From: Utricularia gibba
Taxonomy: Eukaryota > Plantae > Magnoliophyta
Direction of reading: 5' to 3'
NCBI GenBank assembly: GCA_002189035.1
Contig: NEEC01000010.1
Span: 620,001 to 684,000, forward strand
DNA: 64,000 nt
Each line of letters opens with the position of its first letter. Positions within the stretch are counted from its first letter, which is position 1. Below, in pieces: positions 5,400 through 56,570 of this stretch. The position numbers were made by a program, and so were the translations under genes. A model generated the notes under the pieces. That model was not told the DNA's origin. It did no database searches and was given only the letters and a program-made list of their open reading frames with translations.

Positions 5400-5904
5400 T
5401 AAGATTTAGTGATAATCAAGAACACATTGGCAAGAATGATATTATGTAAAAATAAAATAACCCTACACTACATCGCAAGATGTTCCATTAAACACAGCTC
5501 TATCCAACTCAACAAAACATACTTCTCTTGGTTATTCAAGGCCTTTAGGATCAAATCTCTACCATTTCTAACAAACTTGACTCTACCCTCTCCATCGCCT
5601 CACATTCTGACCCATTCCATGACGTAAGTATCCTCTACTACACTTGAAGATGAGGACATCTCCAAAGTTAAGTATGGGTGATGAGTTTATACATTTATGC
5701 TCTTTTTAGTAATACTTTTTATTTTATTATGGTCATGCATTAGGACTTTTGTAGTAATTTTTGTCTATTTGCTTTTTTTATATTTCATTTGTAAAACCAT
5801 CCCCATTATATTTAACATGAGGCAAAGAGAGGCAAAAATAATAATGAGAATAGAGGTAAGGAAAGCCAAAGAAGAATATACACACCTTGCAATAGGTATT
5901 AAAA
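5400..5904 (+). mobile_element. Older Athila-like 3' end (gtaagt...gaggac...ttaagtatggg, then TGATGAG LTR start at 5679), interrupted by the younger element
   Basis: Motif order resembles 13175-13230 and 14420-14450 of the main element. Possible remainder at 14989-15121 ending TTTTATCA. Confidence 0.4.
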
Positions 5905-7035
5905 AGATAAGTGATTTTCTGTCACTTATATTTGTGCTTTTTAGGATTTACTTAAATGGGTTTTGCATTCTTTTTATCCCACTTTCCTTATATTTTTAGA
6001 CGAATTTTATATCTTTCATACCACTAGGATTTTCGAGCTACTTTGATGGAGGAAAAGATTCAGTCTATCTGGATGAAGACTCGGTCAAAGATTCTCGGAT
6101 AAGATAAGATTCGCATCTTATCTTAGAAAATTTGGATCTTATCCTAGAAGATTTGTATCAAATCTTCGAAGATCCAGATAGAAGATTTTATGTGAGCCCG
6201 TCAAGAAAGCCCGACAAGTCCCCACCATTATATACAGATCCAAACTCAAAGATCACAAGATGAGTCAAGGGGTGGACGACCAAAGAGTCAATTTAGGGTT
6301 TAGAGTTGAGTTTAGCATGTTTTTGATGTCTTCCCTTTCGTTTTTCATCAACTTTTGTTGTTTAGAGTCAAGCATGCACGTGTGAGCGCTTGCGGCTGAG
6401 GATCTGCTGTGAAGCCCTGCTTGCGCAAGTCCTGCGCGCGCGACTGTCTTACTATGTTTTTAAGCATTTAATTTGAGGTCTGATTCTGTTTTTCGCAACA
6501 TTTTCTTTACCAACGTGATCTTTAGTACCATATAGCCCTAAGAAAGTGTGGAAGAATCAAAGGTTGGCCTCAAGCACCTAAGGAGAAGGGCTCAATCGGA
6601 CATTGTTGGTAAGGCACATTCTGTCTAATCTGTCTGCGAGGTGTGAGGTGTAGGGGTTAGATTTGGGTTTGGGGAAAAATGGGTTATCTCAAGAGATGAA
6701 ATGGCTCTGGTGGCTTGGTTGATTTTATAATCCCACGAAACAAGGGACGGTGCTATAATGGTCACCGAGTAGCACTATTTTAGCATAACACCCCCAAAGC
6801 TTCCACAAACAGGTCAATTCTCAAGGTTTGCACACATGCAAGGGCGAGTTTCAAGTAAGGTGGATCTTAGATCCAAGGCCACTTTTCTTATTGTTTTTAA
6901 AAACCAAATCTTTCTTTTGTTTTCAATCTTCTTAAAGTCTTTGTTTTGAAGAGAAAATTCTAATAACAATTCCCTGTAGATACGATCTTATTTTATTACT
7001 TTGATGGTTTCTGTACACTTGCAAAATTACCATCA
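5905..7035 (+). repeat. 5' LTR of the Athila element
   Basis: Begins aGATAAGTGA (3' LTR: TGATAACTGA), ends TACCATCA. Contains an 11-bp-stem hairpin TAAGATAAGAT-tcgc-ATCTTATCTTA at 6100-6125. Confidence 0.9.
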
Positions 7036-7041
7036 AGTTTT

Positions 7042-7059
7042 TGGCGCCGTTTTCGGGGA
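7042..7059 (+). other. Primer binding site (tRNA-Asp type)
   Basis: TGGCGCCGTTTTCGGGGA 6 nt after the LTR; two mismatches to the Athila-type consensus TGGCGCCGTTGCCGGGGA. Confidence 0.85.
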
Positions 7060-7179
7060 ATTGTATTCCTTTGGAATTTCTTTTCTGATTTTGTTTCTGA
7101 CTATTTCTTATTTTTCTGTTATTTTCGAGACATTCTATTTAGTGCACTTGCGCAAGCAATTGCTTTTAATTAGTGTTGC

Positions 7180-9916
7180 ATGTGCACGTACAGGGCTTCA
7201 ATCGAGCTGTACCCGCTGGACCTGGAAATTGACCAGACCTATCGGAGAATTAGGTCGGAAAATCGTCAAGCGCAAGCGCAACGCAGGGAAACCATGTCTA
7301 GAAGGTATTTTGGACATGAGGAGGACTATCTGGTGATGTCCGAACCAGATAGCGAACGAGCACGGACGCCAAGACACTAGCCAAACAGGGCAACTGGATC
7401 AGCCTTGCTGATAAATAAAAGAACAGGTATAGGCAGATCTGCTGCTGATCGTGCAGGGTCATATCGAAGGCATAGCGATGGATTTGATCAAGAGCTTGCA
7501 CAGGGACGCTTAGCAGCAAGATTGGGATCAAATCGAGGTGTGGAACCTCTCTGAGAAGGGCCCAAGGCACATTATCAGACCTAGGACGAACCAACAGGGC
7601 ACTGGAACGTGGTCTAGGAAGGCAAAGGCACGCAGGCGCAAATGAAAATTGTTTACAATCAACGTTTGCACAAGGATGGCAAGAAAACAGGGTTTTTGAA
7701 CCTCAACATCAGGACGAGCAGAACAGCAACCCACGAACTGCAAGGCGAGGAGTGAACTCTCCTCCAAGGTGGGAAGGAGAAGACCGTTGGGCTTACAATG
7801 GAGCAAACCAACGTGACAACCAAAGTCCTCATCACGAGCAAAGGTATGAATTTGTAGGAAATCCTGAAAGGGAAAATCATGGAAGACAAAGGCAGATGCT
7901 CAGGAGGAATGTGCGTGCTGAAGAAACATCTAGCGAAGAGGAAGGACCAGACCCAGCATGTAAGGAACCACCTGTGCAAGCGAGGAACCATCGCGCAGGA
8001 AGAGATAAGTATGTGCGCATGGAGCAGAATCCTAACAGATTTGTTGTTGATCCCTAGGATGAAATCCCTTTAGGTGATAACTTTCGACACACAAGGAAGC
8101 CTGGTCCCATTGTTGCACCAGCCATCAATGTGCGGAGATTCCAACTCCAACCCTCGCTGATCACCATGGTGCAACAAAGCCCATTTTGTGGAGAACCCGA
8201 TGAGGATCCCGAATAACACATTGCAATTTTTCTCAGGTATTGTGACATGGTGGCAGAGAGTCTCTGATGAAATCCCTTTAAACTCTCTGCCACCCAACCT
8301 TATTTACACTTGGAAAGAATAGGAGGATGCATTTTTGGACAAATATTTTGAACCCACGAAGTACTCTAACACCAGGTTTGAGATCATAAATTTTTCACAA
8401 GATGAAGGTCAAGGAATAGCAGCAGTTTGGGAGAAATTTAAGGAAATAACACGAGTCACGGATAAGCATGGACTCAGCCCCGCTGCTATGATCATGTGCT
8501 TTCATGATGGACTGACTGCGCAAGCAAAGGGACTGCTGAATGCAAGTGTTGGACCCCTGGACCAGGTAAGTCCTAGAAGGGCCTGGGAACTAATTGATGA
8601 GTTTGCAAAACGACAAGCACGATGGTCTCAACCAGCAAGGAATTCGAAAACTGGAGTTCGGGACAACCCATGTGACACTACCGTCTCAAAGATTTCTGAA
8701 ACATTGCAAAAATTAGACGATAAAATCAGCAAACTCCAGCCTGTCATTGCTCAAGTCCAAAAAGCCTCAGAGAAGACAGATAGTGAGGCAGAAGAAGAAG
8801 GTACGAATGTTAATTTTGGGAATTTTTAGGAAAAAACTTGCGCAAGGAGCTTCTATGCCTGCGCAAGGGAACATTTGGGGAAATCGGGGCAACACTTGGT
8901 AGAACTAGAATCAGAACCAACAGCAGCCTCAACGACCATTCTTGCGAGATACGCTCAATCAATTCATGGAGAAATAGGAAGGGCTGAACCAAGGAATGTT
9001 GGAGCAAATCAAACAAGTAAATGGACTGGTGGTTGAACAACTTAAGCAAATAAGAGGAGAAATTTTGGACCAAAAGACAAGGGTGAATGAGATGAATGAG
9101 TGTCTGGAGCAACTTGGGATAAGAACTCGCATCCTAGACAGTCGGATGAGTAATGTTGCTCAAACCCACAAGGCTTCGAGGCTCCCAAGTCAACCAGAGA
9201 AGAATCCTGCTGAATGTAAGGCTGTAGCAACGAGAAGTGGGATGCAGAGTGCAACAGCAGCAGCCCCTGCACAAGCAGACGAATTGCTGGATGTTCCAGT
9301 GTACGTGTCCCCACCTTCTTATAATCCTCCAATTCCTTATCCATAGAGACAGGCCAAATCATCAGTGGATCAACAATATTCCAAATTTCTGGAGATGTTG
9401 ATAACTCTTCATGTGAACATCTCATTCACTGATGTGATGTTGCAAATGTCCATTTATGCGAAATTCTTGAAGGATATTTTGGCCAATCAAAGGAAGATTG
9501 AGAATGATGGTGTTATTGAATTATCTAAGCAATGCAACAAGGTTCTTACATAGGGGCTGATTCAAAAGCATGCAGATCCTAGAATTTTTTCAGTCTCTTG
9601 TATCATTGGAAGAAGCAATTTTGAGAAGTGCTTATATGATCTTGGGTCAAGTATCAGCTTGATGCCTTATTCTTTATTCAAAGCACTGAATCTTGAGGAG
9701 CTAAGAACCAGGAAAATTCAGCTGGTATTTTCTGATAAATCCATGAAGAATCCTGAAGGAGTGGTAGAAAACGTGCCGGCAAAAATTGGAAAATATTTTG
9801 TTCCTTGTGATTTTGTTGTTTTGGATATGGCACTTGATGTGGAGGTGCCAATCATTTTCAAGAGACCCTTTATGGCAACCACAGGAACCTTAATTGATGT
9901 TAGAGCAAGGAATTGA
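7180..9916 (+). pseudogene. Athila gag and aspartic protease (disrupted)
   Basis: N-terminal LYPLDLEIDQTYRRIR; PAINVRRFQLQPSLITMVQ; Retrotrans_gag-like AVWEKFKE...FHDGLT; protease LYDLGSSISLMP and DFVVLDM. Several stops, frameshifts and small deletions. Confidence 0.85.
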
Positions 9917-12900
9917 CACTCAGATTTGGAGAAGAAGAACTGGAGTTCAATGTTGATCAGGCAATGAAGCGATTTGACTGCGACGAGCTTGCGCAAGGGG
10001 AAGCGGAAGATGCTGTTACGCAAGAACATGCACAAGCAGTTTTTCTGTGCGAAATTCAGGAAGTAAATCTTCTACAGGATGAAAAAGAAGACACTCCGGA
10101 TGACACACCAATGATGGCTCGGCTAACAAAGAAGGAACTTGATGCTGGAGAAAAAATTGAGTTGAAGAAGCTGCCACTATCAATGAGTTACGAATTTCTT
10201 GAGGATGATCACATTTACCCCGTGATTTTTAATGCAGAATTGAATGAATACCACACCCAAATGATGCTGGATGTCTTGCGCAAGCACAGACAAGCCATTG
10301 GGTACACCTTGGATGACTTGAAAGGGCTTGACCCTCAATTCTGCACCCATCGGATTTATTTGGAAGCTGAGGCAAGACCAATTGTGCAACCACAAAGGCG
10401 GGCGAATCCTATGCTAAAGGAGGTGATTAAAAACAAAATTTTGAAATTGTTAGATGCTGATATCAGCTACTCTATTTTAGACAGCCAATGGGTTAGCCCT
10501 ATGCATTGCGTACCAAAGAAAGGAGGCATGACAGTGATGCAAAACGAGAAGGGAGACCTCATTCCCTTGCGCAAGGTCACTAGCTGGAGGATGTGTAATG
10601 ATTTTCGAAAACTCAATGATGCCACCAGAAAGGATCATTATCCATTGCCATTTATTGATCAAATTTTGAAAAGGTTAAGTAACCAAGCTTTCTATTGTTA
10701 CCTGGTTGGTTATTTCGAATATTTTCATATTCCAATTCATCCGGAAGATCAACACAAGACCACATTTACTTGTCCTTTTGGCACCTTTGCATACAAGAGA
10801 ATGCCATTCGGTTTGTGCAATGCTCCTGGAATATTTCAGCGTTGCATGACAGCTATTTTTACAGAACACGTGGAGAAGATCATGGAGGTATTTATGGATG
10901 ATATATCTATTTATGTGACTGATTTCGATTCATGTTTGCAGAACTTAGGCATCATTTTGGAGAGGTGTATTGAGTGCAACCTGGTACTCAATTGGGAGAA
11001 GTGTCATTTTATGGTTGAAGAAGGCATTGTGCTTGGACATCACATTTCTTCCAAAGGCATTCAAGTGGATCCAGCAAAAATCGAGGTGTTTGAAAAATTA
11101 CCAGCACCAACTACGGTAAAAGGGATCAGAAGCTTCTGCAGGATTTTATAGGAGGTTTATTGCTAATTTTTCTCACATTTCTCGCCCACTAACAACGATG
11201 CTTGCGCAAGACGTGGATTTTTGTTTTGAACTGATGTAGAATGTGTGCACGCCTTCAACACGCTGAAGCAAGCTCTTATTACTGCACTCATTCTTCAACC
11301 ACCAGATTGGACCTTGCCATTTGAACTGATGTGTGATGCAAGTGATTGTGCTGTAGGAGCTGTTCTTGGACAGAAAAAAGACAAGGTAATTCATGTGATT
11401 TATTATGCCAGCAAAACTCTCAATGCAGCCCAAAGGAACTACACAACCATAGAAAAGGAGTTGCTGGCAATTGTTTTTGCCATTGAAAAATTCAGGTCCT
11501 ACTTGCTGGGTGCAAAGGTAATTGTTCATACGGATCACACTACCTTGAAATATCTTTTGAGCAAGCAGGAATCAAACCCCAGGTTGATAAGATGGATACT
11601 ACTTCTCCAAGAATTTGATCTGGAAATTCGTGACAAGAAGGGCAAGGAAAATGGAATAGCTGATCATTTGTCACGCTTACAGCTTGAAACAAGTGTGGGG
11701 GAGTTACCCATTGATGACTCTTTCCCCATAGAACGTATCCTTGCTGTTCAAGATGAAAATTTGCCATGGTATGCTGATTTTGTCAATTATCTTGTTGGAG
11801 GAGTCTTGCCCCAGAATCTAAACTACAACCAGCGGAAGCGCTTCCTTGCGCAAGCAAAGCATTATTTCTGGGAAGAACCTATGCTTTTCAAACGTTGTGC
11901 TGATGGAATTATCAGAAGATGCCTACCACCAGAGGAGGTAACAGACGTTATTTAGCACTATCATTCATCACCATATGGAGGGCATGCAGCAACATCAAAA
12001 ACACTCTTCAAAATTCTTCAATCTGGATTTTATTGGCCCACCATGAATCATGATATGAGGGCATTTGTTCAAGCATGCAAACCATGTCAGCATGCGGGTT
12101 CTATTTCCAGGAGAGATGAAAGACCCATGACATATATCCTGGAGGTAGAGATTTTCGATGTTTGGTGGCTGGATTTTATGGGACCCTTTCCATCTTCTTA
12201 TGGCAACACTCAAATTCTCGTGGCGGTGGATTATGTCTCAAAATAGGCAGAAGCTATTGCAGTTCCAGCAGCTGATGGAAGAGCCATAATTAAGCTCTTC
12301 AAACAGATCATTCTACCCCGGTTTGGAGCCCCAAGATACGTCATAAGTGATGGAGGAAAACAATTCATTGAAAGAGAATTCTGGAAGCTCTTGCGCAAGT
12401 ATGGAGTAGGACACAAGGTATCAACTCCATATCACCCACAAACCTGCAGACAAGTGAAGGTAACTAACAGGGAATTGAAGAGGATTCTGGAGCGTACGGT
12501 GGCCAAAACCCGCAAGGATTGGGCAACCGAATTGATAGATGCTCTATGGGCTTATCGCACAGCGTATAAGACTCCCTTAGGGACCTCCCCTTATCGTTTG
12601 GTGTATGGAAAAGCTTGTCACTTGCCTGTGGAATTAGAGCATTTGGATGCCAAAGCTGCTAGAGAGCAAATGATCTTGCAACTCCAAGAGCTGGATGAGC
12701 TAAGGAACAAACGAAGGCTTGACATGACAATTATTTGCGCAAGGACTTGGTAGAAAGTGACCCAATTTTGTTATTTAATTCTCGTTTTCGTTTATTTTTA
12801 GGAAAGCTTAAGTCTAGATGGCATGGACCATACACCATCAAGAAAATCTACCCCAGTGCAGTAGCTCTCATCACTCATACTGACCATGGAGAATTTACGG

Positions 12901-12930
12901 TAAATATTCAAAGATTGAAATAGTTTCATG
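9913..12930 (+). pseudogene. Athila pol: reverse transcriptase, RNase H, integrase (disrupted)
   Basis: WVSPMHCVPKKGG, FRKLNDATRKDHYPLPFIDQ, YKRMPFGLCNAP, FMDDISI (RT); [32 protein letters not shown] (RH); HSSPYGGH...[45 protein letters not shown] (INT). Confidence 0.95.
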
Positions 12931-14436
12931 AAGGGGTAAAATCTTCCATGGACACGTTTCATGTTCCAGTGGATCTCTCCAACCACCCCCCACCTTGATG
13001 AGAAAGCACCTGTGGTTTGCTTGTCGCCACACAAAAACAAGCGATTTCCCTTTTAGTTATTCTATTTTCGATTTTCTCTTGTATTGTTTTTCTTTTCTTC
13101 TTTCTCCTCAATAAGTGCAGGTGCAATGGATACTTTCGAGGAAAAATCCCACACTATTTGACACATGATGAAAGGTAAGTGTTTCTACCCATCTTGAGGA
13201 CAATATGTCATTTAAGTGTGGGGGGGGGGGATAGTTTACTTTTTAGATTGTTTTTTTTTTACCTTTAATAATTTTTTTCGAAATTTGACATATATTTCAT
13301 TGATGAACTCCTTGCATTTTATGTTTTGCTGGAACCTAGGCATCTGTTTTTGGTATTTTTTTTCGAGATAGTTGCTGTAAATTAGAATTTTGGTATGCCT
13401 GTTGTTATGTTGTTTCTTGGCATGCTGTTTAATTTCTGTCCCTTGCGCAAGCTACATAGCCCTAGTTTCTTGGTGAGGAGACCATTTCCTTTTCATTATG
13501 AGTGACTTGAATGCAGAATGATCATAGACTTGCTCTTGTGCATATTGCTGAGTTTTTTTTACAGGTCTTGTGCAAAAGGATTGAGGCACTAGGATTTGTC
13601 TTGTTTTATCCCAATATCCCACCTTGAATCCACTTAGTGAGCTCCACTTGGCCTGAAACCTTTTATTTGGGTCACCACATTAGAAGCCAAATACGTTTTG
13701 ACAATTATAGCCTACATCAATTTCTCTTGACCCAAGGAATGAGCATCTAGAAAATAGTTTTGTTCGTTTGCTTGCGCAAGTTGCTGAACCAAGAACTCTA
13801 TTACAAAGAAGAAAAGTTGAGAGCAATTTTCAATTCACTGATGAAGCTCTATCTCAACAATTTATGAAAAGATTTTCAATAACATCCTATCCAAGAGAGA
13901 GTTGATTCCCAAAAAAAGAAAGAGAAAAAAAAAGAAAAAGAGAAGAAGATGATGAGAAGAAGAGAGAAAAGAGGCTGAAAGGTTGGAACAAGCCACAAAA
14001 CTGAAAAAGGAGTTTCTTGGAGTACGAAAATCAAAGGACAAGCATGACATAACTGTTTGATGGATGCTCACTCCTTATTACCTATGAAATGGAGACTCCG
14101 GCCAAATTTCCCACCTATCCCAAGCTGCTGCCGCACTACAACCTGAGAAAAAGACCTCATGATTGCGCAAGCTTGCTGAAACCAGTGGATCACTTGCGCA
14201 AGTTTATTGACTCGCCTACATTTAGGTATTGAGTGAACCTTTTTATTTTACCCTCTTATGGATTTCTCTTCTTGAGCATATTGAGTGACACCTATGAGGA
14301 GAAGCCACATGCAAGGGGAGCTAGTGTATGGTATGCCATTGAGCAACTTATGCATATTGTTGCCTTAACTCTATTTGCAAGTTACTATTTTGAAGGAAAG
14401 TGCCTTGAACAATTGCTTGAGGACAAGCAAACATTT

Positions 14437-14450
14437 AAGTGTGGGGGAGT
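14437..14450 (+). other. Polypurine tract (a second PPT-like tract lies at 13214-13230)
   Basis: AAGTGTGGGGGAGT directly before TGATAAC; internal copy AAGTGTG followed by a G run. Confidence 0.8.
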
Positions 14451-14988
14451 TGATAACTGATTTTGTGTCGCTTATATTTGTGCTTTTTAGGACTCACTTA
14501 AATGGGTTTTTGCATTCTTTTTATCCCACTTCTTTATATTTTTAGGAGAATTTTATATCTTTCATACCACTTTGATCTTTTTGGAGGGAACGTGTGTTTT
14601 GTGATTTTTCAGGATAATTTTGGCATAATTTGGGGGATTTTCGAGCTACTTTGATGGAGTCAAAGATTCAGTCTATCTGGATGAACACTCGGTCAAAGAT
14701 TCTTGGATAAAATAAGATTCATATCTTATCTTAGAAAATTTGGATCTCATCGTAGAATATTTGTATCAAATCTTCAAAGATTCGGATAGAAGATTTTATG
14801 TGAGCCCATCAATAAAGCCTGACAAGTCCCCACCATTATATAAAAATCCAAACGCAAAGATCAAAAGGTGAGTCAAGGGGTGGACGACCAAAGAGTCAAT
14901 TTAGGGTTTAGATTTATATCAATTCCCTATGAATACGATCTTATTTTATTATTTCGATGGTTTCTGTACACTTCCAGAATTACCATCA
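14451..14988 (+). repeat. 3' LTR of the Athila element (internally deleted)
   Basis: TG...CA. Lacks ~660 bp equivalent to ~6305-6965 of the 5' LTR. Confidence 0.9.
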
Positions 14989-17224: not shown

Positions 17225-19879
17225 TTACCAGTAATCTTTACATGAGCACTCACCAGCGGCAAAGCAGTGAAACCCGGAAGCATCTCGTACATGTATCTCC
17301 CTTTTGCTGACAACTGATGCGAACCTAAAAAAAGAATGGCAATCCCCACAGAGACGGACGTTCTTCATCACCTTCACCGGTCTTCCTGGCTGGTTCTTGA
17401 TGATTGCAAAAGTGACAGCCAGCTTTGCGCTGTGGTACATCAAGAAATTCGTCTTCTGATACTCTTCCACTTCATGGAGGACAAAGCTTGTGTCTGGTTC
17501 ATAACCAGCCTTCATGCATTCTAAGAACAAAATGCTCAGTGCGCTGTTGATGTCTTTTGATTCAGGGTGACGATTGTCTCTGGCAAAGAAGGAATGGACC
17601 TCATTTTGATGTATTGTCCAGCTTCGAGCCGGGAACTTGCGGAATCCTTTGTCCTTCATTTCTCTTTTGACGAGTTCAGAGTAATCCCACTGCCCCCATG
17701 CGGAGTACAGATTTGATTTCAGTATGTAGGCTGATGGCTCCTGTGGCTCAATACTTAGTATTTTCCTGATGGTCCTTTTACCTACTGTGCTATTCTTGTG
17801 AAGGTTGCAACTTTCGAGCAAGGCTTTCCAAACAGATGGCTTCGGCTCGAATGGCATGCTCCTGATGATTCCCTCAGCTTCTTCCAGCAGACCCCATTTA
17901 CCAAATACACCAACTAAAGAGGCATAATGATCTGAACTAGGAACAAGGTTATAGGAGGACTTCATGGAGAGAGAGAATTCATGGCACTGTCGAACCAAGT
18001 TTGACTTGGTGTGCTTATACCCGGTAATAATCAAGGAGCACGTAATAGCATCGGGATGCTGTCCTCTTTCCTTCATTTTACTCCACATGTTCAAGGCCTC
18101 GTCACCCCGCCTACTCAGGATGTAACCAGTCAGCAAACAATTCCATGAAACCGTATCAGGAAAGGATACACTGTTGAAGATCTTAGTTGCCTCTTCCATG
18201 CCACCGCACTTGGAATACATGCTTATCAAACCATTCCCGACTCCTGTATTGAAAAAGAAACCGTTTTTCAGCACATAACAATGAAGCTGCTCACCAAGGT
18301 TCTGAAACCCCAAATCTCCACACACTCCAAGAATCGAAGCCGAGGCAACTTCATCCATGGGCTGGTCTTTGTGTTCCCAAAGCCTCATCAAAGAAATAGC
18401 TTTATCGAGCTCCATGTTTCGAGCATACCCAGAAATCATAGCAGTCATTGTCACTGGGCAACTCTGTTGAAGCCGATGAAATATCTTTTCAGCATCATCT
18501 ATCCTCCCACACCTGGTGCACGTATCAAGTAATGTTGCTGCAATCTTTTCATCAGCGCAACAACCAAGCTTCAGAACAAATGCATGAATCTGTTCACTAT
18601 ACTGCAAATCCCCCAACCGACCACAGGCACGCAAGACACTAGTTATAGTAGACTCATTTAACTCCAAACCCTCCAACATCTTATGGAAATACCTCAATGC
18701 TCGGGAACCATCACCATCGCAACAAAGTCCGGCCAAAAGAGTGTTGAAGGAGATGGCATTCTTCTCAGGCATTCGATCAAAGATATCCACAGCCAAATCA
18801 ACTTTTCCAAACCTCATGTATGCTTTAAGCAATTCAGTCCACGTGAAAACATCTTTAACGGGCATACTGCTAAACAAAGTCTCAACATCATCAATGCATC
18901 CGCACTCAGCATAAAACTCAATAAGCGCATTCCTCACACTCAAATTTCTCTCATAGCCAATTTTATGTGCAAGTCCATGAATTGCCAAGCCTTTTTTCAC
19001 AGAAAAACACTTCGCACTTGCAACAAGGAGACTTGAAAGTGTAAAGTGGTCACATCCATAATCTTCGAATGTCAACATATCATGAAAGAGTTCAAATGCG
19101 CTATAGTAGAATCCACACTTAACCAAACAAGAAAGCACAGTGTTCCAAGACGCAACATCTCTATTGGGAATATCTGCGAACAGATTAGTGACAAAATCCA
19201 GGCGATCGCACTCGCTGTATAATGCCAACACTGCATTGGCAACATACGCACATGCCACATAACCCGTCTTAACTACAAAGGCGTGGACTTGGGAACCCAA
19301 TTCTAAGTCCCTTGAGCGCATACAAGCAGTCAGTAGGGCAACTAGAGTATAGCCGTTGGGTTCAACGCCAGAGTCCCTCATTTGAAAAAATAGCTTCACA
19401 GCATCATTCTCTCTTCGTGATTTTGCAAAGCCAGAAATCATAGCAGTAAATGAAACAACATCTGGGTCGGGAATCGAATTGAAAACTTTCTCGCTATAGG
19501 CTAAGTGACCCAACCCGACATATGATGTGATGAGACAATTCCACAAGCGAATACATTCTTCACTCTTGATAATTGAAGCATGAATTGCTTTACTGAGCTG
19601 AGCATCGCTGTGTTGGGCAGACAGCTTCAGTAAGCGGAAAATTTCAGAGTTGGATAGCGAACGGGATTTATCTAAAGCATCCGGACTAGAAGGACGTTGA
19701 ATGGGTGGCCCCTTGGATAAAGGGAATGATGGGTTAAGATAAGGCTGTACTTGGGAATGGAGAGGAAGGGCTTTAACGTGGGAAACTTTAGAAGGTCGAA
19801 AAGGTTTCCGCTTCCCGCCGGAGAATAATAGACCAGAGTCGGCAGACTGGTAATACGGTTGGGTAAGGGCCGCCGCCAT
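17225..19879 (-). CDS. EMB175: PLS-E-DYW pentatricopeptide repeat protein, 884 aa, intronless; At5g03800/EMB175-like, probably plastid-targeted
   Basis: Uninterrupted ORF with PLS repeats, E domain and terminal CSCKDYW. Segments RDVASWNTV, KDVFTWTE, YILKSNLYSA and YHSAKLAVT match my recollection of At5g03800. Confidence 0.9.
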   Translation of the reverse strand: MAAALTQPYYQSADSGLLFSGGKRKPFRPSKVSHVKALPLHSQVQPYLNPSFPLSKGPPIQRPSSPDALDKSRSLSNSEIFRLLKLSAQHSDAQLSKAIHASIIKSEECIRLWNCLITSYVGLGHLAYSEKVFNSIPDPDVVSFTAMISGFAKSRRENDAVKLFFQMRDSGVEPNGYTLVALLTACMRSRDLELGSQVHAFVVKTGYVACAYVANAVLALYSECDRLDFVTNLFADIPNRDVASWNTVLSCLVKCGFYYSAFELFHDMLTFEDYGCDHFTLSSLLVASAKCFSVKKGLAIHGLAHKIGYERNLSVRNALIEFYAECGCIDDVETLFSSMPVKDVFTWTELLKAYMRFGKVDLAVDIFDRMPEKNAISFNTLLAGLCCDGDGSRALRYFHKMLEGLELNESTITSVLRACGRLGDLQYSEQIHAFVLKLGCCADEKIAATLLDTCTRCGRIDDAEKIFHRLQQSCPVTMTAMISGYARNMELDKAISLMRLWEHKDQPMDEVASASILGVCGDLGFQNLGEQLHCYVLKNGFFFNTGVGNGLISMYSKCGGMEEATKIFNSVSFPDTVSWNCLLTGYILSRRGDEALNMWSKMKERGQHPDAITCSLIITGYKHTKSNLVRQCHEFSLSMKSSYNLVPSSDHYASLVGVFGKWGLLEEAEGIIRSMPFEPKPSVWKALLESCNLHKNSTVGKRTIRKILSIEPQEPSAYILKSNLYSAWGQWDYSELVKREMKDKGFRKFPARSWTIHQNEVHSFFARDNRHPESKDINSALSILFLECMKAGYEPDTSFVLHEVEEYQKTNFLMYHSAKLAVTFAIIKNQPGRPVKVMKNVRLCGDCHSFFRFASVVSKREIHVRDASGFHCFAAGECSCKDYW

Positions 19880-26690: not shown

Positions 26691-28080
26691 TACTAAATGG
26701 AGTCTAAACCATAGATTACAATCGTTGGCCCTCTACAAAATCCTGCCTACATAGAGCTAAGCATCGAATTATGAGAAAAACATGAATTATCATGGAAGAT
26801 AAAATTACTTTGGTGATATGGTTAGTTTTATAATCTCAGTAAATGAGAGATAATGCTATAAGGGTTACCTAATATTAAATGCGTCGAAAATCAACATTGT
26901 ACGATAAAGATGAAAAAGGATAAAAAGAGATAAAAAAAACACCCAATGACAAGAGTCAAAGTCAAAAGACGGCATAAAGATGGAGGAATAAACTGGAAAA
27001 ATCGGTTACAGAACCTAAATCAGGCTACAAGGAGCTTCTCACCACAAATTGGTCTACAAGCAATAAATCGGCTACACGTTAAGAAGAGGATAGAAAAGAG
27101 ATAGTGTCAGCCTCCAGCCGTTCGAAGGTAGTCTGAAAGGACCAACCTACAAGAATTCAGAGCAAAAGATGGTTATTTATCAATGAAGACTACCAACAAG
27201 ATCAAGCAAATTCCATCAAGTAAAGCAGTTGATCCTCTCAGAATCGATTGAGTAGGTCTCCCTTATAAATATGAGCTCAATTTATGAGAAAAGAGTTTCT
27301 TCCTTTTTCGCAACCTATAGAATTCGCTCCTCTTCTTCTACAGTGAAACCTTCTTTTCTAGTGAGCTCCATAGTTTCATGGTTTTTCGACACGAATTATA
27401 GATTCAAACTAATCAAAAATAAAATCTAGGTTAAGTAAATCTAATTATAGATTTACCCTCTTGGAAATTGACGAATCATCCTATATCTGATTTCTAACCA
27501 CAATAAGTAATATTACTTAAAAATGGCATTTTTAAAAAATTACGTACACAAGTTGATTATTGTGATTTACCAACACATCGGGCAAGTTTGTGTACTAGTG
27601 GAGTTTTGATCAAGTCATTATTTTATATCTGTTAAGTGTCATTTTTTCACTATGTTTTAGGTTGTTTTTATGTCTAAATGTGATTAAAGTTGTTTAGTTA
27701 AGAGTTTATAATATAAGATTTAGGTTTTTATCTAGTATAGAGTACTTTTCCTAAATCTTGTATTTTATCTAATATTTTGTCTAGTTTTCTTCAAGTTTTT
27801 TTAGAGGCGCACATGTGACAGGAAGTGAGAGAAAGAAGGTGATAGATGGTGACAAAATGCATCTTCTCAAATTGACATCTTCTGATTTTATCAGTGGCGG
27901 CCGTTTAGGACAGACTGAAAAGTAGCCGAATTGCGGCAATAGCAAGGCAGACGGCAGTTATCTGAATGCAAAATCACAATGTGTACAACAGGCACAGAAA
28001 GCAGTCGACACATGCTGAGCTCAGAATTCGGTCAAGCTCAACTCACCTACAAATAGTGGAAGGGACGGGAACTCCAAGCC

Positions 28081-29365
28081 TGTTGCGTGTCGTTTCCTCA
28101 ACAAATTTTAAATATTTAAAAGGTAAAACACAAAAGAGCATAGTACGAATATCGATCTCAGGGAGTTGTTTTTCGTGAAAAGTGTTTTGTAAGAAACTTC
28201 TACAAAATGTCACGGTTTTGTAAAAGGAGATTTGTGAAATGCAGAAAGAAAAGTTACAACCTAGGTGATAGGCCTTAACTACGAGACACAGTTCCTGGGA
28301 ATGAGATTCCATCTCCTACCTTTGTCTATTCTCGCCTCGATTTTCACTGATTTCTTTCGAATAGCTGATTTTAGGAGCAAAGAATAGTCTAATATCCCTT
28401 CCACTCTGATTGACAAGGAGGCAAGGGAATAGCCTCATGTGATTCCCCCTTGGACGATTAAGAAGACAAGAGGATTGCCTTTGATTGCCTTCAAAACCGA
28501 ATTGCGCGCGTGTGCCCAGCTGTTGCCAATAGCCAATGGTAGGCTTGAGGTCACAACCTATCCACTGTCGCGGTACCTAGGCCACAAACAATCCGCTACT
28601 TCCCTCCAACCAGTAGGGTTGGAGTTGGTGCTCTTCACCTTGATTTTCACCAAAATTCATGAGGAGTGGCCAGCTACTCATGGACCTAAACTAGGAGTCA
28701 TTACAGAAAGACTGCAACAAGATGCGTGAAAGTATGTGAAATCCAATATGAATTCAGCGAAGAACAGAGTGTATTGCTCAAGACTTGGAAGGAAACTTCA
28801 TCTTCTCTCATAAACTAAAAGGTTTTAGCCACAAAGGATCATGAAAACAGAAATGAAATTGGAAACTAAGTGTTCTTCCTCCTTGAAAGGGAGGAAGAAC
28901 TCAAAAGTCCTAAGTCTAGAAAGGAAATGGCAAAAGTCTAAGAGTAAGTGTTCCAAGTTGCTTTTAGATCACTCCCCATGTGCATTAACTCTTTTGGGTC
29001 CCCTTCCTATCATTCCTTCTATCTTGCGTGCAAGTTAGCACCACTAGCTTTCCTTTGCGTGCAAGTTAGCATCCAATCATTTCTGCAGACTCTGACATGC
29101 CGTAAGTCAGGGGCCTTGACCAATGTCAGTCTTCCGCCCACAATTATTTCAAGTCACCTAAAAGACACGAAAAGTGAGAGTCTAACCTCCTGCAACACTC
29201 CATGACTACCTCCGTACATGTCTTGGTCAAACTGTGCAAAAAAGACAAAGAAAACCTAATAAATAACTTATCAATATAATTCCTAATTGTGCGACTTAAT
29301 ACATAATTAATACATAATTAACACATAATAATACCTAATAAATAACTAATAAATAACACTTAACA
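28081..29365. mobile_element. 1285-bp solo LTR inserted in the 5' Tat LTR
   Basis: TGTTG...TAACA termini. Perfect TSD AAGCC at 28076-28080 and 29366-29370. The empty site ACTCCAAGCCCTCCAACC is present in the 3' LTR. Confidence 0.92.
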
Positions 29366-30129
29366 AAGCCCTCCAACCTATATTTTCTCTCCTCTAACGT
29401 CTAGTGAAAACCATTTTTCCGGCGAGCTCCGACAACTCCCTAGTTTTTCCGTTCTCCGACGATTTCCACGTAAAAAATCTTTGTCTCTCTCTATTTCTGT
29501 TAACCGCATCAAGCAAAGCATTTGAACCGCGACTGGATATGGCGCGTCCGGCTGTATTTGTGACCCAAAAATCGGCTCCCGTTAGAATACCAATTTTTTA
29601 TTAAACCCATGCATCCATCATACGGATAAGCCCTGGTACAATTTGGGCACCGGCTTCCATAAGCCGTTCGTGCAAGCCCCGAGAAAGCCTAGTAAAGTTC
29701 TTGATGCCGAATCTCGAGACGGTAAGCGCACCCGAAGCAGATCTGGCTATGTCCCGAAAGCATAAATATTTGGCCAGAAGAGGGCCAATTCGGATTGGGG
29801 ATGTAACTTAGCCCAAGAGGGGTTCCGAGTTACATCCTTAGCAGCGGTCTCGCACGCGTAAGAAACGACTTAGGAAAAAAAGCCCAGCCAAGTGACTGGC
29901 AAATCACGCCTTTGACAAATCGGAAAAATCGATGAAGGCAAGGGCAATATGCAAAAAGCTAACTGGAAGAAAAAACCCCGAATCGGGGACAAAAACATCC
30001 ATCTCCAAAGAGAGAAACTAAGATTCAGGAAGGGGTTCTGTTGAGGGGCCAACAAGCCCTTTGAGCCTCACTCTCACCTTGACTTCGTTCTCTCACTGAA
30101 TCCTTGCCCAAATCAGCGCTATTAGGCAC

Positions 30130-32531: not shown

Positions 32532-34767
32532 GGAGAGATATTCGGAAGACAAATGGCACGTCGTTTGATGTACCCAAAATGAGCGGAAAAAAATGTGGAG
32601 CGCTCAGGAGATGATGCGTGGCATAGAGGTTGGTTTAAATCGGATTGGAACTTATTCATGGGGATCAGCATGCCTGATAGTGATGTAGTAGTGATTCTGA
32701 TTCACCGATTTACCCCGAGGGGCCAATATCGATAAATCAGAGAGGCTAAATGATGCGGTCTAAATCGGACTTGGTTAGTCGATCTCTGAAAAGTAGCCAA
32801 AAGGTGTTGTGGCACCCTGGTGCAGGCCGACAAAACGATAATTGTTAGGGTTTGTCAGCGGCGGCTGTTTTGAACAGATTGAAAAGTAACCGAATTATGG
32901 CAATAGCAGGGCAGGCGGCGGTTATCTGAATGCAGAACCACTATGTGTACAACAAGCACAGAAAGTAGCCAACACATGTAGAGCTCAGAATTCGGTTAGG
33001 CTCAACTCACCTACAAATGTGAGAGACATGATAGTGGAAGGGATGGGAACTCCAAGCCCTCCAACCTGTATTTTCCCTCCTCTTACGTCTAGTGAAAACC
33101 ATTTTTCCGACGAGCTCCGACAGCTCCGTGGTTTTTCCGTTCTCCGAAGGTTTCCACGTAAAAAATCCTTGTCTCTCTCTATTTCTGTTAACCACATCAA
33201 GCAAAGCATTTAAACCGCGACCGGATACGGCGCATCCGACCGTATTTGTGACCCGAAAATTCGTGTCCCATCAGAATACCGATTTTTGCCCTCAACAGTA
33301 CAAGTGTGAGAACATAAGCTTCCTTGCAAGCCACTCCAAGTCACAGTAGGACTAACGAGACACGAAAAGTCAAACTTTCATTGAAGTTTAGTTTAGTTTA
33401 GACGAGGAGATATGAATTCGAGTGTTAGTTTAGACTTTATTTGTTTCTCTAGAGGATTTTCCTCTAGCTTATCTCTGAAACTTTATTTTCATTTCCTTAG
33501 TTTGTATGACCGTTCATGACTAGAAACTTCCGTTTCTAGGTTGGGATACTCAAAAATCTATGTTTCATTAGTTTATCTTTATCTCTTCTTTGAATCTAAA
33601 CGGGTTTCATATATCTTTACATGACTATGTTACAGTCTTTCTATAACAATCTCTTTATTCAAGATTTATCGTTAGCTGATCACTACCTACGAGTTTTGAA
33701 GAGGATCAAGATGGAGAGCACCAACTCATTTCCTTTTGCCAGGAGAGAGACAATGTTTTATCTATGACCGTACCTCATGATCAATGCACAGATTGTCACG
33801 TCGTTTTGACTCATTGGGTCATTGGCAGCACTCGGGTATACGCGCGCAATTCAGCTGTGAGGGTACGCTGGCAGGACCTCTTATCTTCAACTCCATGTAC
33901 TTGATACTTATACTACGCTTTTGTGTTTTACGAGTTTTAAAAATATTAAATTTTTTTGCGGAAACAACCCGCATCAATATCTTATAAAATATGTAAATAA
34001 TCAATTGCTTATGAGGATGATCTTTTTTATTAATTCAATAGCTTATATGCATTTGCATAATTGTCATTAATCTTTATCTCCATGACACTATTACACATGG
34101 TAAATAGAAAAATGACACAATATATGATAAAATATCAATTATTTTCAATAGTTGAGATAAAATAATAATAGATTTATAAATTAGTATAATATGAAAACTT
34201 GTAAAAAATACAATATTTTACCCATTTATTTTAAAAGCAAGAGTGTTATGCTACTAATTATTGTATTTTGTAAAGTAAAATAAAAGAGTTACTATTTTGA
34301 AAAACAAATAAAAAATTAATTTATTTTTTCAATTAAATTAAAAGCTAAATTATTTGGTAAATTATCTAAAGAATTAAAATATTTTGGAAAGTAAATAAAA
34401 AGTTGAGGTATTCTAAAAATTATGCTAATTTTCTCTTTTTGAGGCCAATAACAATTAATAAAAAATAAAAGAAAAACAAGAGTTGTGAGTTGAGATTGAA
34501 ATCCACCATTTATCGATAATTTTTTTATGTGTATAGTTTACAAGTCGAGTGAATTGCAATTTGAATAATGCCGCTTTCACATGAAATATGACATTTTTCG
34601 TTTTGTGGGTAAATGTTAATACACCTGAGTTGGAATTGGAAAGGGAGAGGCGAGGCCCCCTTTGATCTGGACCTGGCCTGGTACGAGAGGGAAGGCAAAC
34701 ACCGAACAGCTGGATTCTCTAGCACTTGAATCCCAAGGGCCACTCGTTTCAACTGGAGCCGCATCCG

Positions 34768-52669: not shown

Positions 52670-54744
52670 AGTCCCTTCTCGCCTGCAGCAAACGCTTTCA
52701 GACCTCAACCTCACTCACGGCAACGGCACACGAGACACTGACCGCAACTCCTGGAAGTTGAATGCATTCAACGGGGTTTTATTTCGCGGTGGGATGTCAC
52801 GGGGAACCCTCGGGATAGAGAGAGGAAGACAGCAGTAGCGGTGGCAATATACCTTTGGTTCTCCCAGTTCTGTTTTTCTTTTCTTTTTTCTTTTTATTTC
52901 ATAATCTGACAAATTTACCCAATAAAGCACTATGCTCGCAGTTCAATGATTTGGACGGCTATCATTGGTTAATTTCTGAAAAAAAAATATTTTTTTAGTT
53001 AGTTGAAAAAAAAAATATATAAAAAGGTACGGTAAAATCCAATTCCACTTTATATCCACAACGTTCACCCTCAAATCTTATTTCGGGAATCCAAAGAAAA
53101 ATAAAATACTTTCATTCTATAAAAAAAAAATTAAAAAGAACAACGTGGGCATGCGAATGCATTTAAATACTATTTCATATTCCAATAAATTCATTTTCAA
53201 ATACATTTTACAAAAATACCCTTAAAAATCATCTATTTTTTTCCAAAAAGATGAATATTCCCAAAATCCAATTTAGCAATCTAACATGGCTTTGGAATAC
53301 TTACCATTGGCAAGTTGAGATTTCATTGATAATCTCTTTTTTATTTTGATAAATTTTTCCATATAATTTTCTTGATTTCTCCCTTATCCGGGAAACTTTG
53401 CGAAGATCTATCAGTCGCACTTCTCATTCAATGCCACATATTTTTATATGATATGGGTCAATTATCAGATGATTAAATATTTTGTTTTTGCAGGTTTGAA
53501 ATGCTACCAATTTGAATTACTTTCAATTTAATTTTTATTTCTTATGAATTTACTAATTTGAATGAACATGTGGAGTTGAAGGTTAAATACTTTTATGTTG
53601 ATAAATTTTGTTTGATCCTAATAAGTTATTTTGTATAGTTTCAAAATACGTTTTTATCCACTCTTTAGAATTTTTTTATTTTATTCTCTATGTTTTCATT
53701 AAATTTTATTGATTTTATATCTTTCATACTAATTTAATTTTTTGGAAAACAAATTGTATTTTTTAGATTACTATTATATTTTTGGATTAATTTTGGAAGA
53801 AATTATAAATAAAAAATTTAAAATTTAAATAATGAATGTTCAAAAAGATGTTCATGAATGAAATGATCCGAAATTTAAAATTTAAATAAAAATTTGAAGA
53901 TAATCTTGAAAGATTTAAATAAAAAATAAATAGAGAATTTTATTCCAATACATCAAACAAGCTCAATAGAAAATTCGATCTTATCTTCTATGAATACTAT
54001 CATAAAATTCTTTTGATCATTTTTCTTTTTTATTTTTCAGATTTTTATATTTGTTTTCATGTTAGAGACAAACATGTATATATAAATATTTTTTGCTAAG
54101 AATATATAGTAAAATCTTACTTATGTAAATACTTGTATGTGTGATTATTTTACTATATTTTTTTATATTTAATTTGAATTTTGATTTAATTTTCTCATTG
54201 TTTTTTTGTCAACATGCTATTGATCAATGCAAAACCCAAAGAGAATGTGAGAAAATTCAAATTGGTCTCAAACACCTAAATAAAGTGGTTCAATCAAACA
54301 TAGTTATCAAAGCACATTTGATGTATCTATCTACAAGGGTATGAACTATAAGGGCTAGGATTAAATTTGGGGTAAACATTGATTATCATATGAGGTAAAA
54401 TGATTCTAAGGACATAGTTAATTTTATAATCTTACAAAATGAGAGACGGTATTATAACAATTATTGAGTAGTATTAATACTCAAAATTTATATAAACAAG
54501 TTATTTCCTGATGTTTAAACACATACAAAGAATCAAGTGGAGATTAACCTAATGTAGATACATAATGATAAATTTGTTAGCATCATTTATATAGACTTGG
54601 ATTTTGACTATTAAATGAAAAATATCATCCCCTACTTGTATATGAGACTGTGTCCAATGATTTTTATTGTTCAAGAAAACTAATTTTCAAACTCCATGTA
54701 TATGCGTTATGTAGGATATTTTCTACCACAAAGAATTTGAGTAT

Positions 54745-56220: not shown

Positions 56221-56570
56221 GCCTTCAATGCTCCTAACTTTTAGTTTTTGCATTGTTTGATTTAGCGGAGTTGCTGAAAATGGGAAGAAGGTTCGATTTT
56301 AGTGTGGGTTGTGCAAAAGGTTTGTGATTTATCCTTCAAATTTTCATTTGTTGAGGTTTTGGAGTTTGAAATGGGGCGATGTGGGGGTGCGGCAAAGCAA
56401 CTATAATCTCTTGCTCAAGATCCCGATGATTGCAGATCGCACCATCGATAAAAGCACCCTCCGCAGTTTCTTTTCCAATCTTATTGACGGTGATCTTACC
56501 CCCATCCACAATCGATATAAACATCCTTTCTTCTAGTCAATTTTCCTGCTTCCATCTCAGTTTTTTCTAT
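56221..56570 (+). pseudogene. Partial duplicate of the RabC 5' UTR, exon 1 and start of intron 1
   Basis: Collinear with 62321-62665 (CTTCAATGCTCCTA..., GGAGTTTGAAATGGGG, TTTCCAATCTT.TTGACG.TGATCTTACCCCCA, TCAATTTT.CTGCTTCCA). Frameshifted; splice donor lost. Confidence 0.88.

What the first reader, a model, noticed from the sequence alone, without database searches (positions are those of the whole stretch)
6420..14202. A 10-bp palindrome, CTTGCGCAAG, marks one retrotransposon from LTR to 3' region
Seen: 12 perfect copies (6420, 7147, 8837, 9988, 10275, 10566, 11201, 11845, 12390, 13442, 13771, 14193) and 3 one-mismatch copies (8858, 12734, 14162) in 9.1 kb, spread over LTR, leader, gag, pol and 3' non-coding DNA. 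I saw none in the other ~55 kb. An independent-base model at 40% GC expects about 0.005 copies. The copies are dispersed and flanks mostly differ, so they are not a tandem-duplication product. Established: TTGCGCAA is the core of the C/EBP-type bZIP site; VANDAL transposons accumulate short motifs bound by their own VANC anti-silencing proteins; Sirevirus LTRs carry palindromic motifs. Inference: this family carries an element-wide recognition signal for a dimeric protein (element-encoded anti-silencing factor, host bZIP, or a packaging/integration factor). I do not know of a description of this motif, but I could not search the literature.
Basis: partly seen in the sequence, partly recalled or inferred. 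Interest (0 to 1): 0.85.

Follow-up and report, generated by a model that had tools for sequence, protein, structure and literature searches.

The report
Athila retrotransposon's private DNA docking word
A broken plant jumping gene carries one 10-letter palindrome 12 times, even inside its enzyme genes where the protein sequence differs from its relatives to fit it, and many relatives carry their own private words beside an accessory gene whose product, in one relative, is predicted to fold like a known anti-silencing protein, so the word is likely a docking site that would help the element escape silencing.

Summary
Confirmed: 12 perfect CTTGCGCAAG copies in a decayed Athila-type Ty3/gypsy element (5905-14988), none elsewhere in the window. 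The word bears marks of selection: all 5 peptide sites in the tested pol frame that could encode it do (at most 2 in 20,000 codon permutations), and in reverse transcriptase the usual PTRT(V) reads PLRK(V). It decays after insertion, so it is kept only in the replicating lineage. None of 102 other Athila-like loci has it, but 16 of 46 long ones have their own enriched word, 14 of 16 with CG, mostly in non-coding clusters before the accessory ORF2. A confident model of one such ORF2 (PF20167) has VANC21 bound to DNA as top structural match (Z 7.8-8.0, 204-207 of 243 residues; next 4.0); a second ORF2 (PF03078) modelled poorly and did not replicate this. Best reading: family-specific docking sites for a VANC-like ORF2 supplied in trans, since this copy has no ORF2. 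Binding and demethylation are untested; bisulfite evidence is mixed. The scan noted similar motif lattices earlier in fungal transposons.

The parts
5905..7035 (+). 5' LTR; holds the copy at 6420
   Evidence: Aligns with the 3' LTR; sister contigs diverge at 5906 and 7035/7036 (loose ends)
7042..7059 (+). Primer-binding site (TGGCGCCG..., Athila type; the tRNA-Asp assignment is recalled)
   Evidence: Sequence directly after the LTR end
7180..8830 (+). Broken gag region with a long hydrophilic N-terminal stretch that holds several degenerate copies (7267, 7495, 7665, 7971, 8515)
   Evidence: PF03732 hit in 8323-8826; translations
9400..12960 (+). Broken pol (protease region, RT, RNase H, integrase); stops, frameshifts and deletions
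   Evidence: RVT_1, RT_RNaseH, rve hits; translations
12960..13230 (+). Short post-pol stretch ending in an internal polypurine tract; ORF2 of relatives lies here but is absent
   Evidence: No ORF2 profile hit in the element; PPT-like tract at 13214
13230..14450 (+). 3' non-coding region with four copies, ending in the terminal polypurine tract
14451..14988 (+). 3' LTR, lacking the part equivalent to 6308-6962; 41 mismatches in 482 aligned columns; no target-site duplication
6420..6429 (.). CTTGCGCAAG, LTR
7147..7156 (.). CTTGCGCAAG, leader
8837..8867 (.). Perfect copy (8837) and one-mismatch copy (8858), gag-pol linker; present in sister copies
9988..9997 (.). CTTGCGCAAG, protease-RT linker, read as L-A-Q
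10275..10284 (.). CTTGCGCAAG just before the RT core, read as L-R-K
10566..10575 (.). CTTGCGCAAG inside RT; IPLRKV where relatives mostly have IPTRTV/IPTRLV
11201..11210 (.). CTTGCGCAAG, RT-RNase H connection, read as L-A-Q
11845..11854 (.). CTTGCGCAAG, integrase N-terminal part, read as L-A-Q
12390..12399 (.). CTTGCGCAAG, integrase core, read as L-R-K
12734..12743 (.). One-mismatch copy, end of integrase
13442..13451 (.). CTTGCGCAAG, 3' non-coding
13771..13780 (.). CTTGCGCAAG, 3' non-coding
14162..14202 (.). One-mismatch copy (14162) and perfect copy (14193), 3' non-coding
53990..54480 (+). Much older relative of the same LTR; the aligned site at 54120-54129 differs from the word only by four C>T/G>A changes

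Best explanation
The palindrome is a family-specific word written 12 times through an Athila element, and it is likely a DNA docking site for the family's accessory ORF2 protein, which is predicted (from a relative's ORF2) to have a VANC21-like fold and would be supplied in trans by intact sister copies to counter methylation silencing. Shown: the word, its spread over coding and non-coding DNA, its sharp 10-base edges, codon and amino-acid choices that fit it, its decay in inserted copies, and different CG-containing words in other Athila families beside ORF2. Inferred: selection in the replicating lineage for a dimeric or symmetric DNA binder (about 0.85); that the binder is ORF2 (about 0.6); that the effect is anti-silencing (about 0.5 overall). 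What sets this family apart is that the sites are single, spread along the whole element and set into RT and integrase, not gathered in non-coding arrays.
For: 5 of 5 compatible peptide sites in the tested pol frame use the word's codons; 20,000 synonymous permutations gave at most 2. At 10566, 83 of 98 relatives keep the R but only 1 has L before and 2 have K after it, and the 97 with a full 10-base match opposite are 5-9 bases from the word. Q at 11201 in 2 of 77, Q at 11845 in 1 of 55, R at 12390 in 3 of 43. Sister contigs keep the word at 8837/8858, varying mainly at the central CG; an old copy has lost it by C>T/G>A changes. 16 of 46 long Athila-like loci exceed the best of 188 Markov simulations, 14 of these 16 words contain CG against 11 of 188 null best words; several are palindromes or spaced palindromes clustered at +2800 to +3800 from the RT start, before ORF2 at about +3550 to +3970. 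ORF2 model pLDDT 87: VANC21-DNA complex is rank 1 by Foldseek (E 1.9, TMq 0.45, others 0.18 or less) and by VIA-align (Z 7.8, rmsd 4.3, 204 aligned, next Z 4.0; Z 8.0, 207 aligned). VANC21 binds a short family-specific motif and causes demethylation (PMC5735166, passages).
Against: This copy has no ORF2 and no intact sister was available, so the family's own ORF2 was never seen. The folded ORF2 (L016, PF20167) is from another Athila subclade; the window's RT groups with PF03078-type elements, whose model was poor (pLDDT 48) and did not list VANC21 among 50 rows; profile comparison of the two ORF2 types found no link. Z 7.8-8.0 is at the level the tool says can be a common arrangement, and Foldseek's E-value is not significant. 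Five loci with an ORF2 hit (L018, L028, L049, L055, L071) show no significant word. In the bisulfite-like run X6 the central CG at the LTR site is retained in 18 contigs, i.e. methylated, and sister copies lose the CG by mutation. VANC motifs are non-coding and not palindromic.
Confidence: 0.5

Rival explanations
1. The word is an enhancer-like site for a host dimeric transcription factor (for example a bZIP), multiplied to drive expression of the element.
For: A 10-base dyad with sharp edges fits a dimer. TTGCGCAA is the C/EBP core (recalled). The copy lacks ORF2, so a host binder needs no helper. In this copy 0 of 12 perfect sites against 6 of 12 imperfect ones have lost the CG (Fisher p 0.014), as lasting occupancy might give.
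Against: No perfect copy lies near the three host genes or elsewhere in the other 55 kb. Each Athila family has a different word, which fits a co-evolving element protein better than one host factor. Plant bZIPs prefer ACGT cores (recalled). Sites deep in RT are poorly placed for a promoter role.
Confidence: 0.2
2. The word works in RNA: self-complementary copies pair between or within genomic RNAs for dimerisation or packaging.
For: Two copies form a 10-bp duplex of -15.3 kcal/mol; all copies but the LTR one lie in the transcribed interior.
Against: The copies are not presented in loops: they are slightly less unpaired than with shuffled flanks (difference -0.10 +/- 0.045). Words of relatives include spaced palindromes and a one-way word (ACTCGACC, 20 of 22 listed hits on one strand) that cannot self-pair well.
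Confidence: 0.1
3. The word is read on the DNA copy by a core element protein (integrase, or the unusually extended Gag) for nuclear import, targeting or family self-recognition, without a role in methylation.
For: Would explain retention in an element lacking ORF2 and sites along the whole length; the gag region has a long extra hydrophilic stretch.
Against: No evidence was gathered that these proteins read internal sequence; clustering before ORF2 in relatives points to ORF2 regulation.
Confidence: 0.12
4. The word is a by-product of mutation or short-patch copying during reverse transcription and has no function.
For: Four of the five compared coding sites sit where the protein is predisposed (L-x-K, L-A-x); palindromes can promote template switching (recalled).
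Against: CG-containing words are destroyed, not made, by the dominant C>T/G>A process here (15 of 16 CGs lost in the old copy; 11 of 15 LTR CGs differ); edges are sharp with no copied flanks; conserved RT residues were changed.
Confidence: 0.08

Closest known systems
VANDAL21/VANC21 anti-silencing system of Arabidopsis (PMC5735166, passages read; PMC10398659, passages; structure 9LNJ/9LNK, listing only)
   Same: Short family-specific word accumulated in many copies in one transposon family; different families have different words; an accessory gene whose predicted fold (for an Athila relative) matches VANC21 over most of the domain.
   Different: Host is an LTR retrotransposon, not a Mutator-like DNA transposon; the word is a perfect CG-centred palindrome; copies are single and dispersed, 5 of 12 inside pol cores, whereas VANC21 motifs are in non-coding tandem repeats and absent from the coding probes; binding and demethylation untested; this copy encodes no such protein.
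Repeated motifs (RM boxes) of Sireviruses (PMC2829016, passages read)
   Same: Family-specific, palindromic, mostly CG-containing short words with divergent flanks, in the LTR and upstream of an extra env-like ORF; function unknown.
   Different: Sireviruses are Ty1/copia; RMs have a CGG-CCG core and cluster in non-coding DNA; the paper calls them Sirevirus-specific among the copia elements studied and reports no such motif for Athila in the passages seen; here the word enters gag and pol.
Athila lineage of Ty3/gypsy with its env-like ORF2 (PF03078, PF20167; PMC11728184, PMC7264820, PMC13547354, passages read)
   Same: PBS, gag-pol order, internal and terminal polypurine tracts, RT in a supported clade with PF03078-bearing elements.
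   Different: ORF2 is missing from this copy. These papers treat ORF2 as env-like or of unknown function; PMC12844716 (passages) lists an epigenetic role for Athila extra ORFs as open; PMC13547354 links VANC to MAIN structurally and predicts oligomers for both VANC and the Athila domain but, in the passages and section 10 read, does not link the two folds.
Retand/Tat extra ORFs and gypsy-encoded plant mobile domains (PMC11963269, PMC5418596, passages read)
   Same: Gypsy accessory proteins with predicted DNA binding next to family-specific repeats; an anti-silencing use of PMD is speculated for MULEs.
   Different: [quoted passage not shown]

Membership tests
Athila lineage (Ty3/gypsy) | LTRs with PBS and gag-PR-RT-RH-INT order | tested here: met
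Athila lineage (Ty3/gypsy) | RT groups with elements that carry the ATHILA ORF2 | tested here: met
   Starred clade of 15 rows (100/98) with L008, L061, L074; the window's branch is long (0.5), 44 of 92 available rows used; PF03078 hits
Athila lineage (Ty3/gypsy) | Extra ORF2 between pol and the 3' non-coding region (typical, recalled as not universal) | tested here: not met
   No hit of two ORF2 profiles in the element; best i-E 0.17 lies outside it
VANC-type sequence-specific anti-silencing system | Short motif accumulated in one transposon family and differing between families | tested here: met
   (0 of 102 other loci hold the word)
VANC-type sequence-specific anti-silencing system | Motifs in non-coding tandem repeats, absent from coding DNA | tested here: not met
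   5 of 12 copies in pol cores, flanks unrelated; relatives do fit: 157 of 173 copies outside the cores, none in RT
VANC-type sequence-specific anti-silencing system | Element family encodes a VANC-fold protein | tested here: inconclusive
   Match for a relative's PF20167 ORF2; poor model for PF03078; none in this copy
VANC-type sequence-specific anti-silencing system | The protein binds the motif | not testable with these tools
   needs EMSA, DAP-seq or ChIP
VANC-type sequence-specific anti-silencing system | Local loss of CG methylation at the motif, broader loss of non-CG methylation | tested here: inconclusive
   Bisulfite-like run X6: CG kept at 6420 in 18 contigs; read as TG at 8837 in 5 contigs, which may be unmethylated or mutated
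Sirevirus RM boxes | Palindromic word with divergent flanks in LTR and before the extra ORF | tested here: met
   LTR copy and 3' copies here; clusters before ORF2 in relatives
Sirevirus RM boxes | Ty1/copia host and CGG-CCG core | tested here: not met
   Gypsy domain order; core is GCGC

The most novel reading that the evidence does not exclude
The 'env-like' ORF2 of Athila, the dominant centromeric and pericentromeric retrotransposons of many plants, is not an envelope but a VANC-fold, sequence-specific anti-silencing protein; every Athila family carries its own CG-containing target word that co-evolves with its ORF2, and this family has pushed the system furthest by writing the word into its reverse transcriptase and integrase genes at the cost of conserved residues, while ORF2-less copies live off the protein in trans.
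Probability: 0.42. Interest if true: 0.9.

Novelty: new variant of a known kind. Interest (0 to 1): 0.72.

Why it matters
Sequence-specific anti-silencing is shown for plant DNA transposons; the papers I read leave it open for LTR retrotransposons and leave the function of Athila ORF2 unknown. If right, this gives ORF2 a job and names candidate target words for about ten families, including one whose ORF2 is 95% identical to an Arabidopsis suecica protein (ACTCGACC, L008), so the idea can be tested at once in a model genus. It would bear on how Athila expands inside heterochromatin and centromeres and would add a large natural set of protein-word pairs for targeted epigenome work. The window's element supplies the clearest sequence evidence that such a word is under selection, because the protein sequence was bent to hold it.

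Tried and rejected
No whole genome is held, so genome-wide counts were not possible. No close family member was found outside the read sets: best RT identity 71% at DNA level among the fetched loci; none of 102 holds the word. IMG/VR gave nothing for the RT and 7 isolated two-copy pattern matches that I did not follow up and took for chance. The two host proteins tried are not in the protein collection by exact sequence; the plant was not identified. Tandem-duplication origin rejected (flanks uninformative). Helical or codon phasing of the 15 sites not seen (resultant 0.03-0.33); even spacing not significant (P 0.063). Loop presentation in RNA not seen. Lasting protection of the CG from mutation: only a weak hint (0 of 12 against 6 of 12), contradicted by sister contigs (8841 C>T 57% of depth in X1, 9% in X5; 8863 G>A 24% in X5). 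No sequence-level link of ORF2 to solved structures or to VANC/PMD Pfam families; no match in the viral structure library (best E 0.32); first Atlas search gave no usable hit. Second ORF2 model uninformative. The ORF2-word association (9 of 12 against 5 of 18) is not used as evidence because the profiles were built mostly from word-bearing loci and loci are related. Literature: ten searches found no description of this word, of family-specific palindromes in Athila, or of an ORF2-VANC fold link; the library lacks most subscription papers, and Sasaki 2022 (EMBO J) and Tanaka 2026 (VANC21 structure) could not be read. Supplements of PMC13547354 were not opened and may hold a structural cluster joining ATHILA and VANC domains.
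Full report
Observation. CTTGCGCAAG occurs 12 times in the window, at exactly the stated places; 100 dinucleotide shuffles gave a mean of 0.05 and at most 1. With one mismatch there are four more: 8858, 12734, 14162 and one outside the element at 56410. It is the most over-represented 10-mer of the element (12 seen, 0.021 expected by an order-2 Markov model). A further 12 two-mismatch sites lie in the 9.1-kb element against 8 in the other 55 kb, so the family probably had more sites than are perfect today. Bases flanking the 12 copies show no common sequence: the word has sharp edges and was not spread by tandem duplication.

The element. It is a decayed Ty3/gypsy element in a flowering-plant window (neighbouring PPR-DYW, NCS1 permease and WDR3-like genes). 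The 5' LTR is 5905-7035, followed by a PBS at 7042; gag, RT, RNase H and integrase are recognisable but broken. The 3' LTR (14451-14988) lacks the part equivalent to 6308-6962, which includes the LTR copy of the word; the LTRs differ at 41 of 482 columns and there is no target-site duplication, so the two LTRs may not date one insertion. Contigs of four public runs of the same organism code cover the whole element at 80-100% likeness and diverge at the LTR ends: it is a multi-copy family. Its RT falls in a supported clade (100/98) with elements that carry the ATHILA ORF2 domain, on a long branch (44 rows chosen from 92). Between pol and an internal polypurine tract there are only about 250 bases, and no ORF2 profile hits the element.

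Signs of selection. In the pol frame tested (9904-11151 and 11230-12639), exactly five peptide sites could encode the word and all five do; 20,000 synonymous-codon permutations gave 0 (19,106), 1 (879) or 2 (15). The word is read in different frames (L-A-Q and L-R-K). At 10566 in RT the element reads IPLRKV; of 98 related loci 83 keep the R, 1 has the L and 2 the K, and the 97 with a full 10-base match opposite are 5-9 bases away from the word; protein homologues agree. At 11201, 11845 and 12390 the Q, Q and R are found in 2 of 77, 1 of 55 and 3 of 43 relatives; at 10275 L-R-K is close to the norm. Against this stands a strong destroying force: 11 of 15 CGs differ between the LTRs, and an old relative of the same LTR at about 53990-54480 has lost 15 of 16 CGs, its aligned site differing from the word by four C>T/G>A changes. 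Sister contigs keep the word at 8837 and 8858; the differences listed inside it are at the central CG, apart from one change in a single contig of run X7. Inference: the word is old, decays once a copy is inserted and silenced, and is therefore maintained by selection on copies that replicate.

Methylation. Run X6 shows C>T and G>A converted ends and is taken to be a bisulfite library. At the LTR site 18 contigs read the word with its CG intact while neighbouring non-CG cytosines are converted, i.e. CG methylated. At 8837 five contigs read TG, which may be an unmethylated CG or a mutated copy (C>T is 9% of depth in X5 and 57% in X1), while a CG 37 bases upstream shows no conversion row. In the window's own copy 0 of 12 perfect sites but 6 of 12 imperfect sites have lost the CG (Fisher p 0.014; three sites with transversions at the CG left out). 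These data are inconclusive, and an old family need not be making its factor today.

Relatives. 102 loci with a related RT were fetched; none is close (at most 71% DNA identity in RT) and none holds the word. Of 46 loci long enough to include LTR/leader or post-pol DNA, 16 have an 8-mer more enriched than the best of 188 Markov simulations, counting only copies with unlike flanks; 14 of the 16 contain CG, against 11 of 188 null best words and 2 of the 30 non-significant loci. The words differ by family and are mostly palindromes or spaced palindromes: ACTCGCCATGGCGAGT (L011 group), AATCGTGTCACGATT (L050, L086), GTGTCGATCGACAC (L061 group), GCGCCTAGGCGC (L091), CGCTAAGCG (L065), CTCGCCCAGCGA (L016), TCTCGCTTAAGCGAGA (L029), and the one-way ACTCGACC (L008, L074). 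The loci are not independent (about ten distinct words), some members of the same RT clusters show no signal (L025, L027, L072, L059), and L067's word may belong to an inserted element. The copies cluster in LTR/leader, inter-domain linkers and above all just before ORF2 (PF20167 or PF03078): 157 of 173 lie outside approximate PR/RT/RH/INT cores and none in RT, against 5 of 12 inside cores for the window. L066, left out of that total, has five CGGGATA in 2 kb of pol at borderline significance and may be a second dispersed case. So the phenomenon is a lineage trait; the window's family is an extreme form.

The candidate reader. The ORF2 core of L016 (97% identical to a Vigna unguiculata protein) gave a confident model (pLDDT 87.1, pTM 0.85). 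Its best match among solved structures is VANC21 bound to its target DNA: rank 1 by Foldseek though not significant (E 1.9, TMq 0.45), Z 7.8, rmsd 4.3, 204 residues aligned among 48,161 chains with the next at Z 4.0, Z 8.0 with 207 aligned on a second look. The tool warns that Z near 8 can be a common arrangement; here the match covers residues 1-229 of 243 and stands well above the rest. No viral envelope or other viral fold matched. The attempt to repeat this with the Arabidopsis-type ORF2 of L008 failed: pLDDT 48, no VANC21 among 50 rows. My profiles did not link the two ORF2 types; the ESM Atlas features did (PF03078 clusters at 0.91), as does a passage in PMC11728184. Five loci have an ORF2 hit but no significant word.

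Mechanism. Most likely: ORF2, made by intact sisters, binds the family word on chromosomal copies and keeps or makes them less methylated, as VANC21 does for VANDAL21 (binding to a nine-base motif and demethylation, PMC5735166 passages; spread of non-CG loss into coding regions, PMC10398659 passages). Spreading single sites through gag and pol would extend that cover along the body, and the shortened post-pol region, where relatives keep their arrays, may have favoured it (inference). Steps shown are the word, its selection signature and the layout in relatives; the binder, its presence in this family and the effect on chromatin are inferred. Rivals are a host dimeric factor (0.2), a core element protein reading the DNA copy (0.12), RNA pairing (0.1; copies are not in loops) and a neutral by-product (0.08).

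Comparison and novelty. It works like, but is not filed as a member of, the VANC system: the motif is not confined to non-coding repeats, and binding is untested. It parallels Sirevirus RM boxes (palindromic, CG-rich, in LTRs and before the env-like ORF; PMC2829016 passages) in a different superfamily. Ten literature searches found neither this word, nor family-specific palindromes in Athila, nor an ORF2-VANC fold link; PMC12844716 (passages) states the question as open, and PMC13547354 (passages and section 10) links VANC to MAIN but not to the Athila domain in what I read; its supplements were not opened. PMC12859917 and PMC11512509 (meeting reports, passages) mention anti-silencing only for DNA transposons; bioRxiv 2024.04.02.587720 was seen as passages. 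Earlier notes of this scan describe similar motif lattices in fungal transposons; they are unchecked and not used as support.

Verdict. Real feature, new variant of a known kind, interest 0.72. The bold reading, that Athila ORF2 is a VANC-like anti-silencing protein with family-specific target words, has probability about 0.42 and is directly testable.

Noticed in passing
window 5450-5904: A decayed piece of another Athila-like element (splice-donor-like GTAAG, internal polypurine tract, T-rich tail) directly upstream of the 5' LTR, alignable to the element's own 13145-13340; suggests a nested or rearranged insertion.
   Followed up: partly
window 13060-13190: Pyrimidine-rich acceptor-like tract, an 11-codon ATG frame and a GTAAG donor-like site where relatives have ORF2: possibly the stump of a deleted ORF2.
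   Followed up: partly
window 7290-8050: About 250 codons of broken hydrophilic sequence ahead of the usual Gag start region, with several degenerate copies of the word.
   Followed up: no
window 53620-55200: Very old Athila-like remnant with near-complete C>T/G>A decay (56 G>A and 42 C>T in about 460 aligned columns).
   Followed up: partly
window 27887-29598, 32751-33300, 55202-55748: Three related LTR-like repeats of another family (69-90% alike), one split by about 1.3 kb of other sequence.
   Followed up: no
window 17225-19879 (-), 34768-36420 (+), 57192-60547 (-): Host genes: PPR protein with E and DYW domains, NCS1-type nucleobase permease, WDR3/Utp12-like protein.
   Followed up: no
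L066, -546 to +1338 from the RT start: Five CGGGATA copies dispersed in pol, two in RT; borderline, a possible second coding-embedded word.
   Followed up: partly
L088-L102, L104-L109: Plant Athila-like RT sequences sit in contigs of bacterial genome records (for example several in one MAG), most likely contamination.
   Followed up: no
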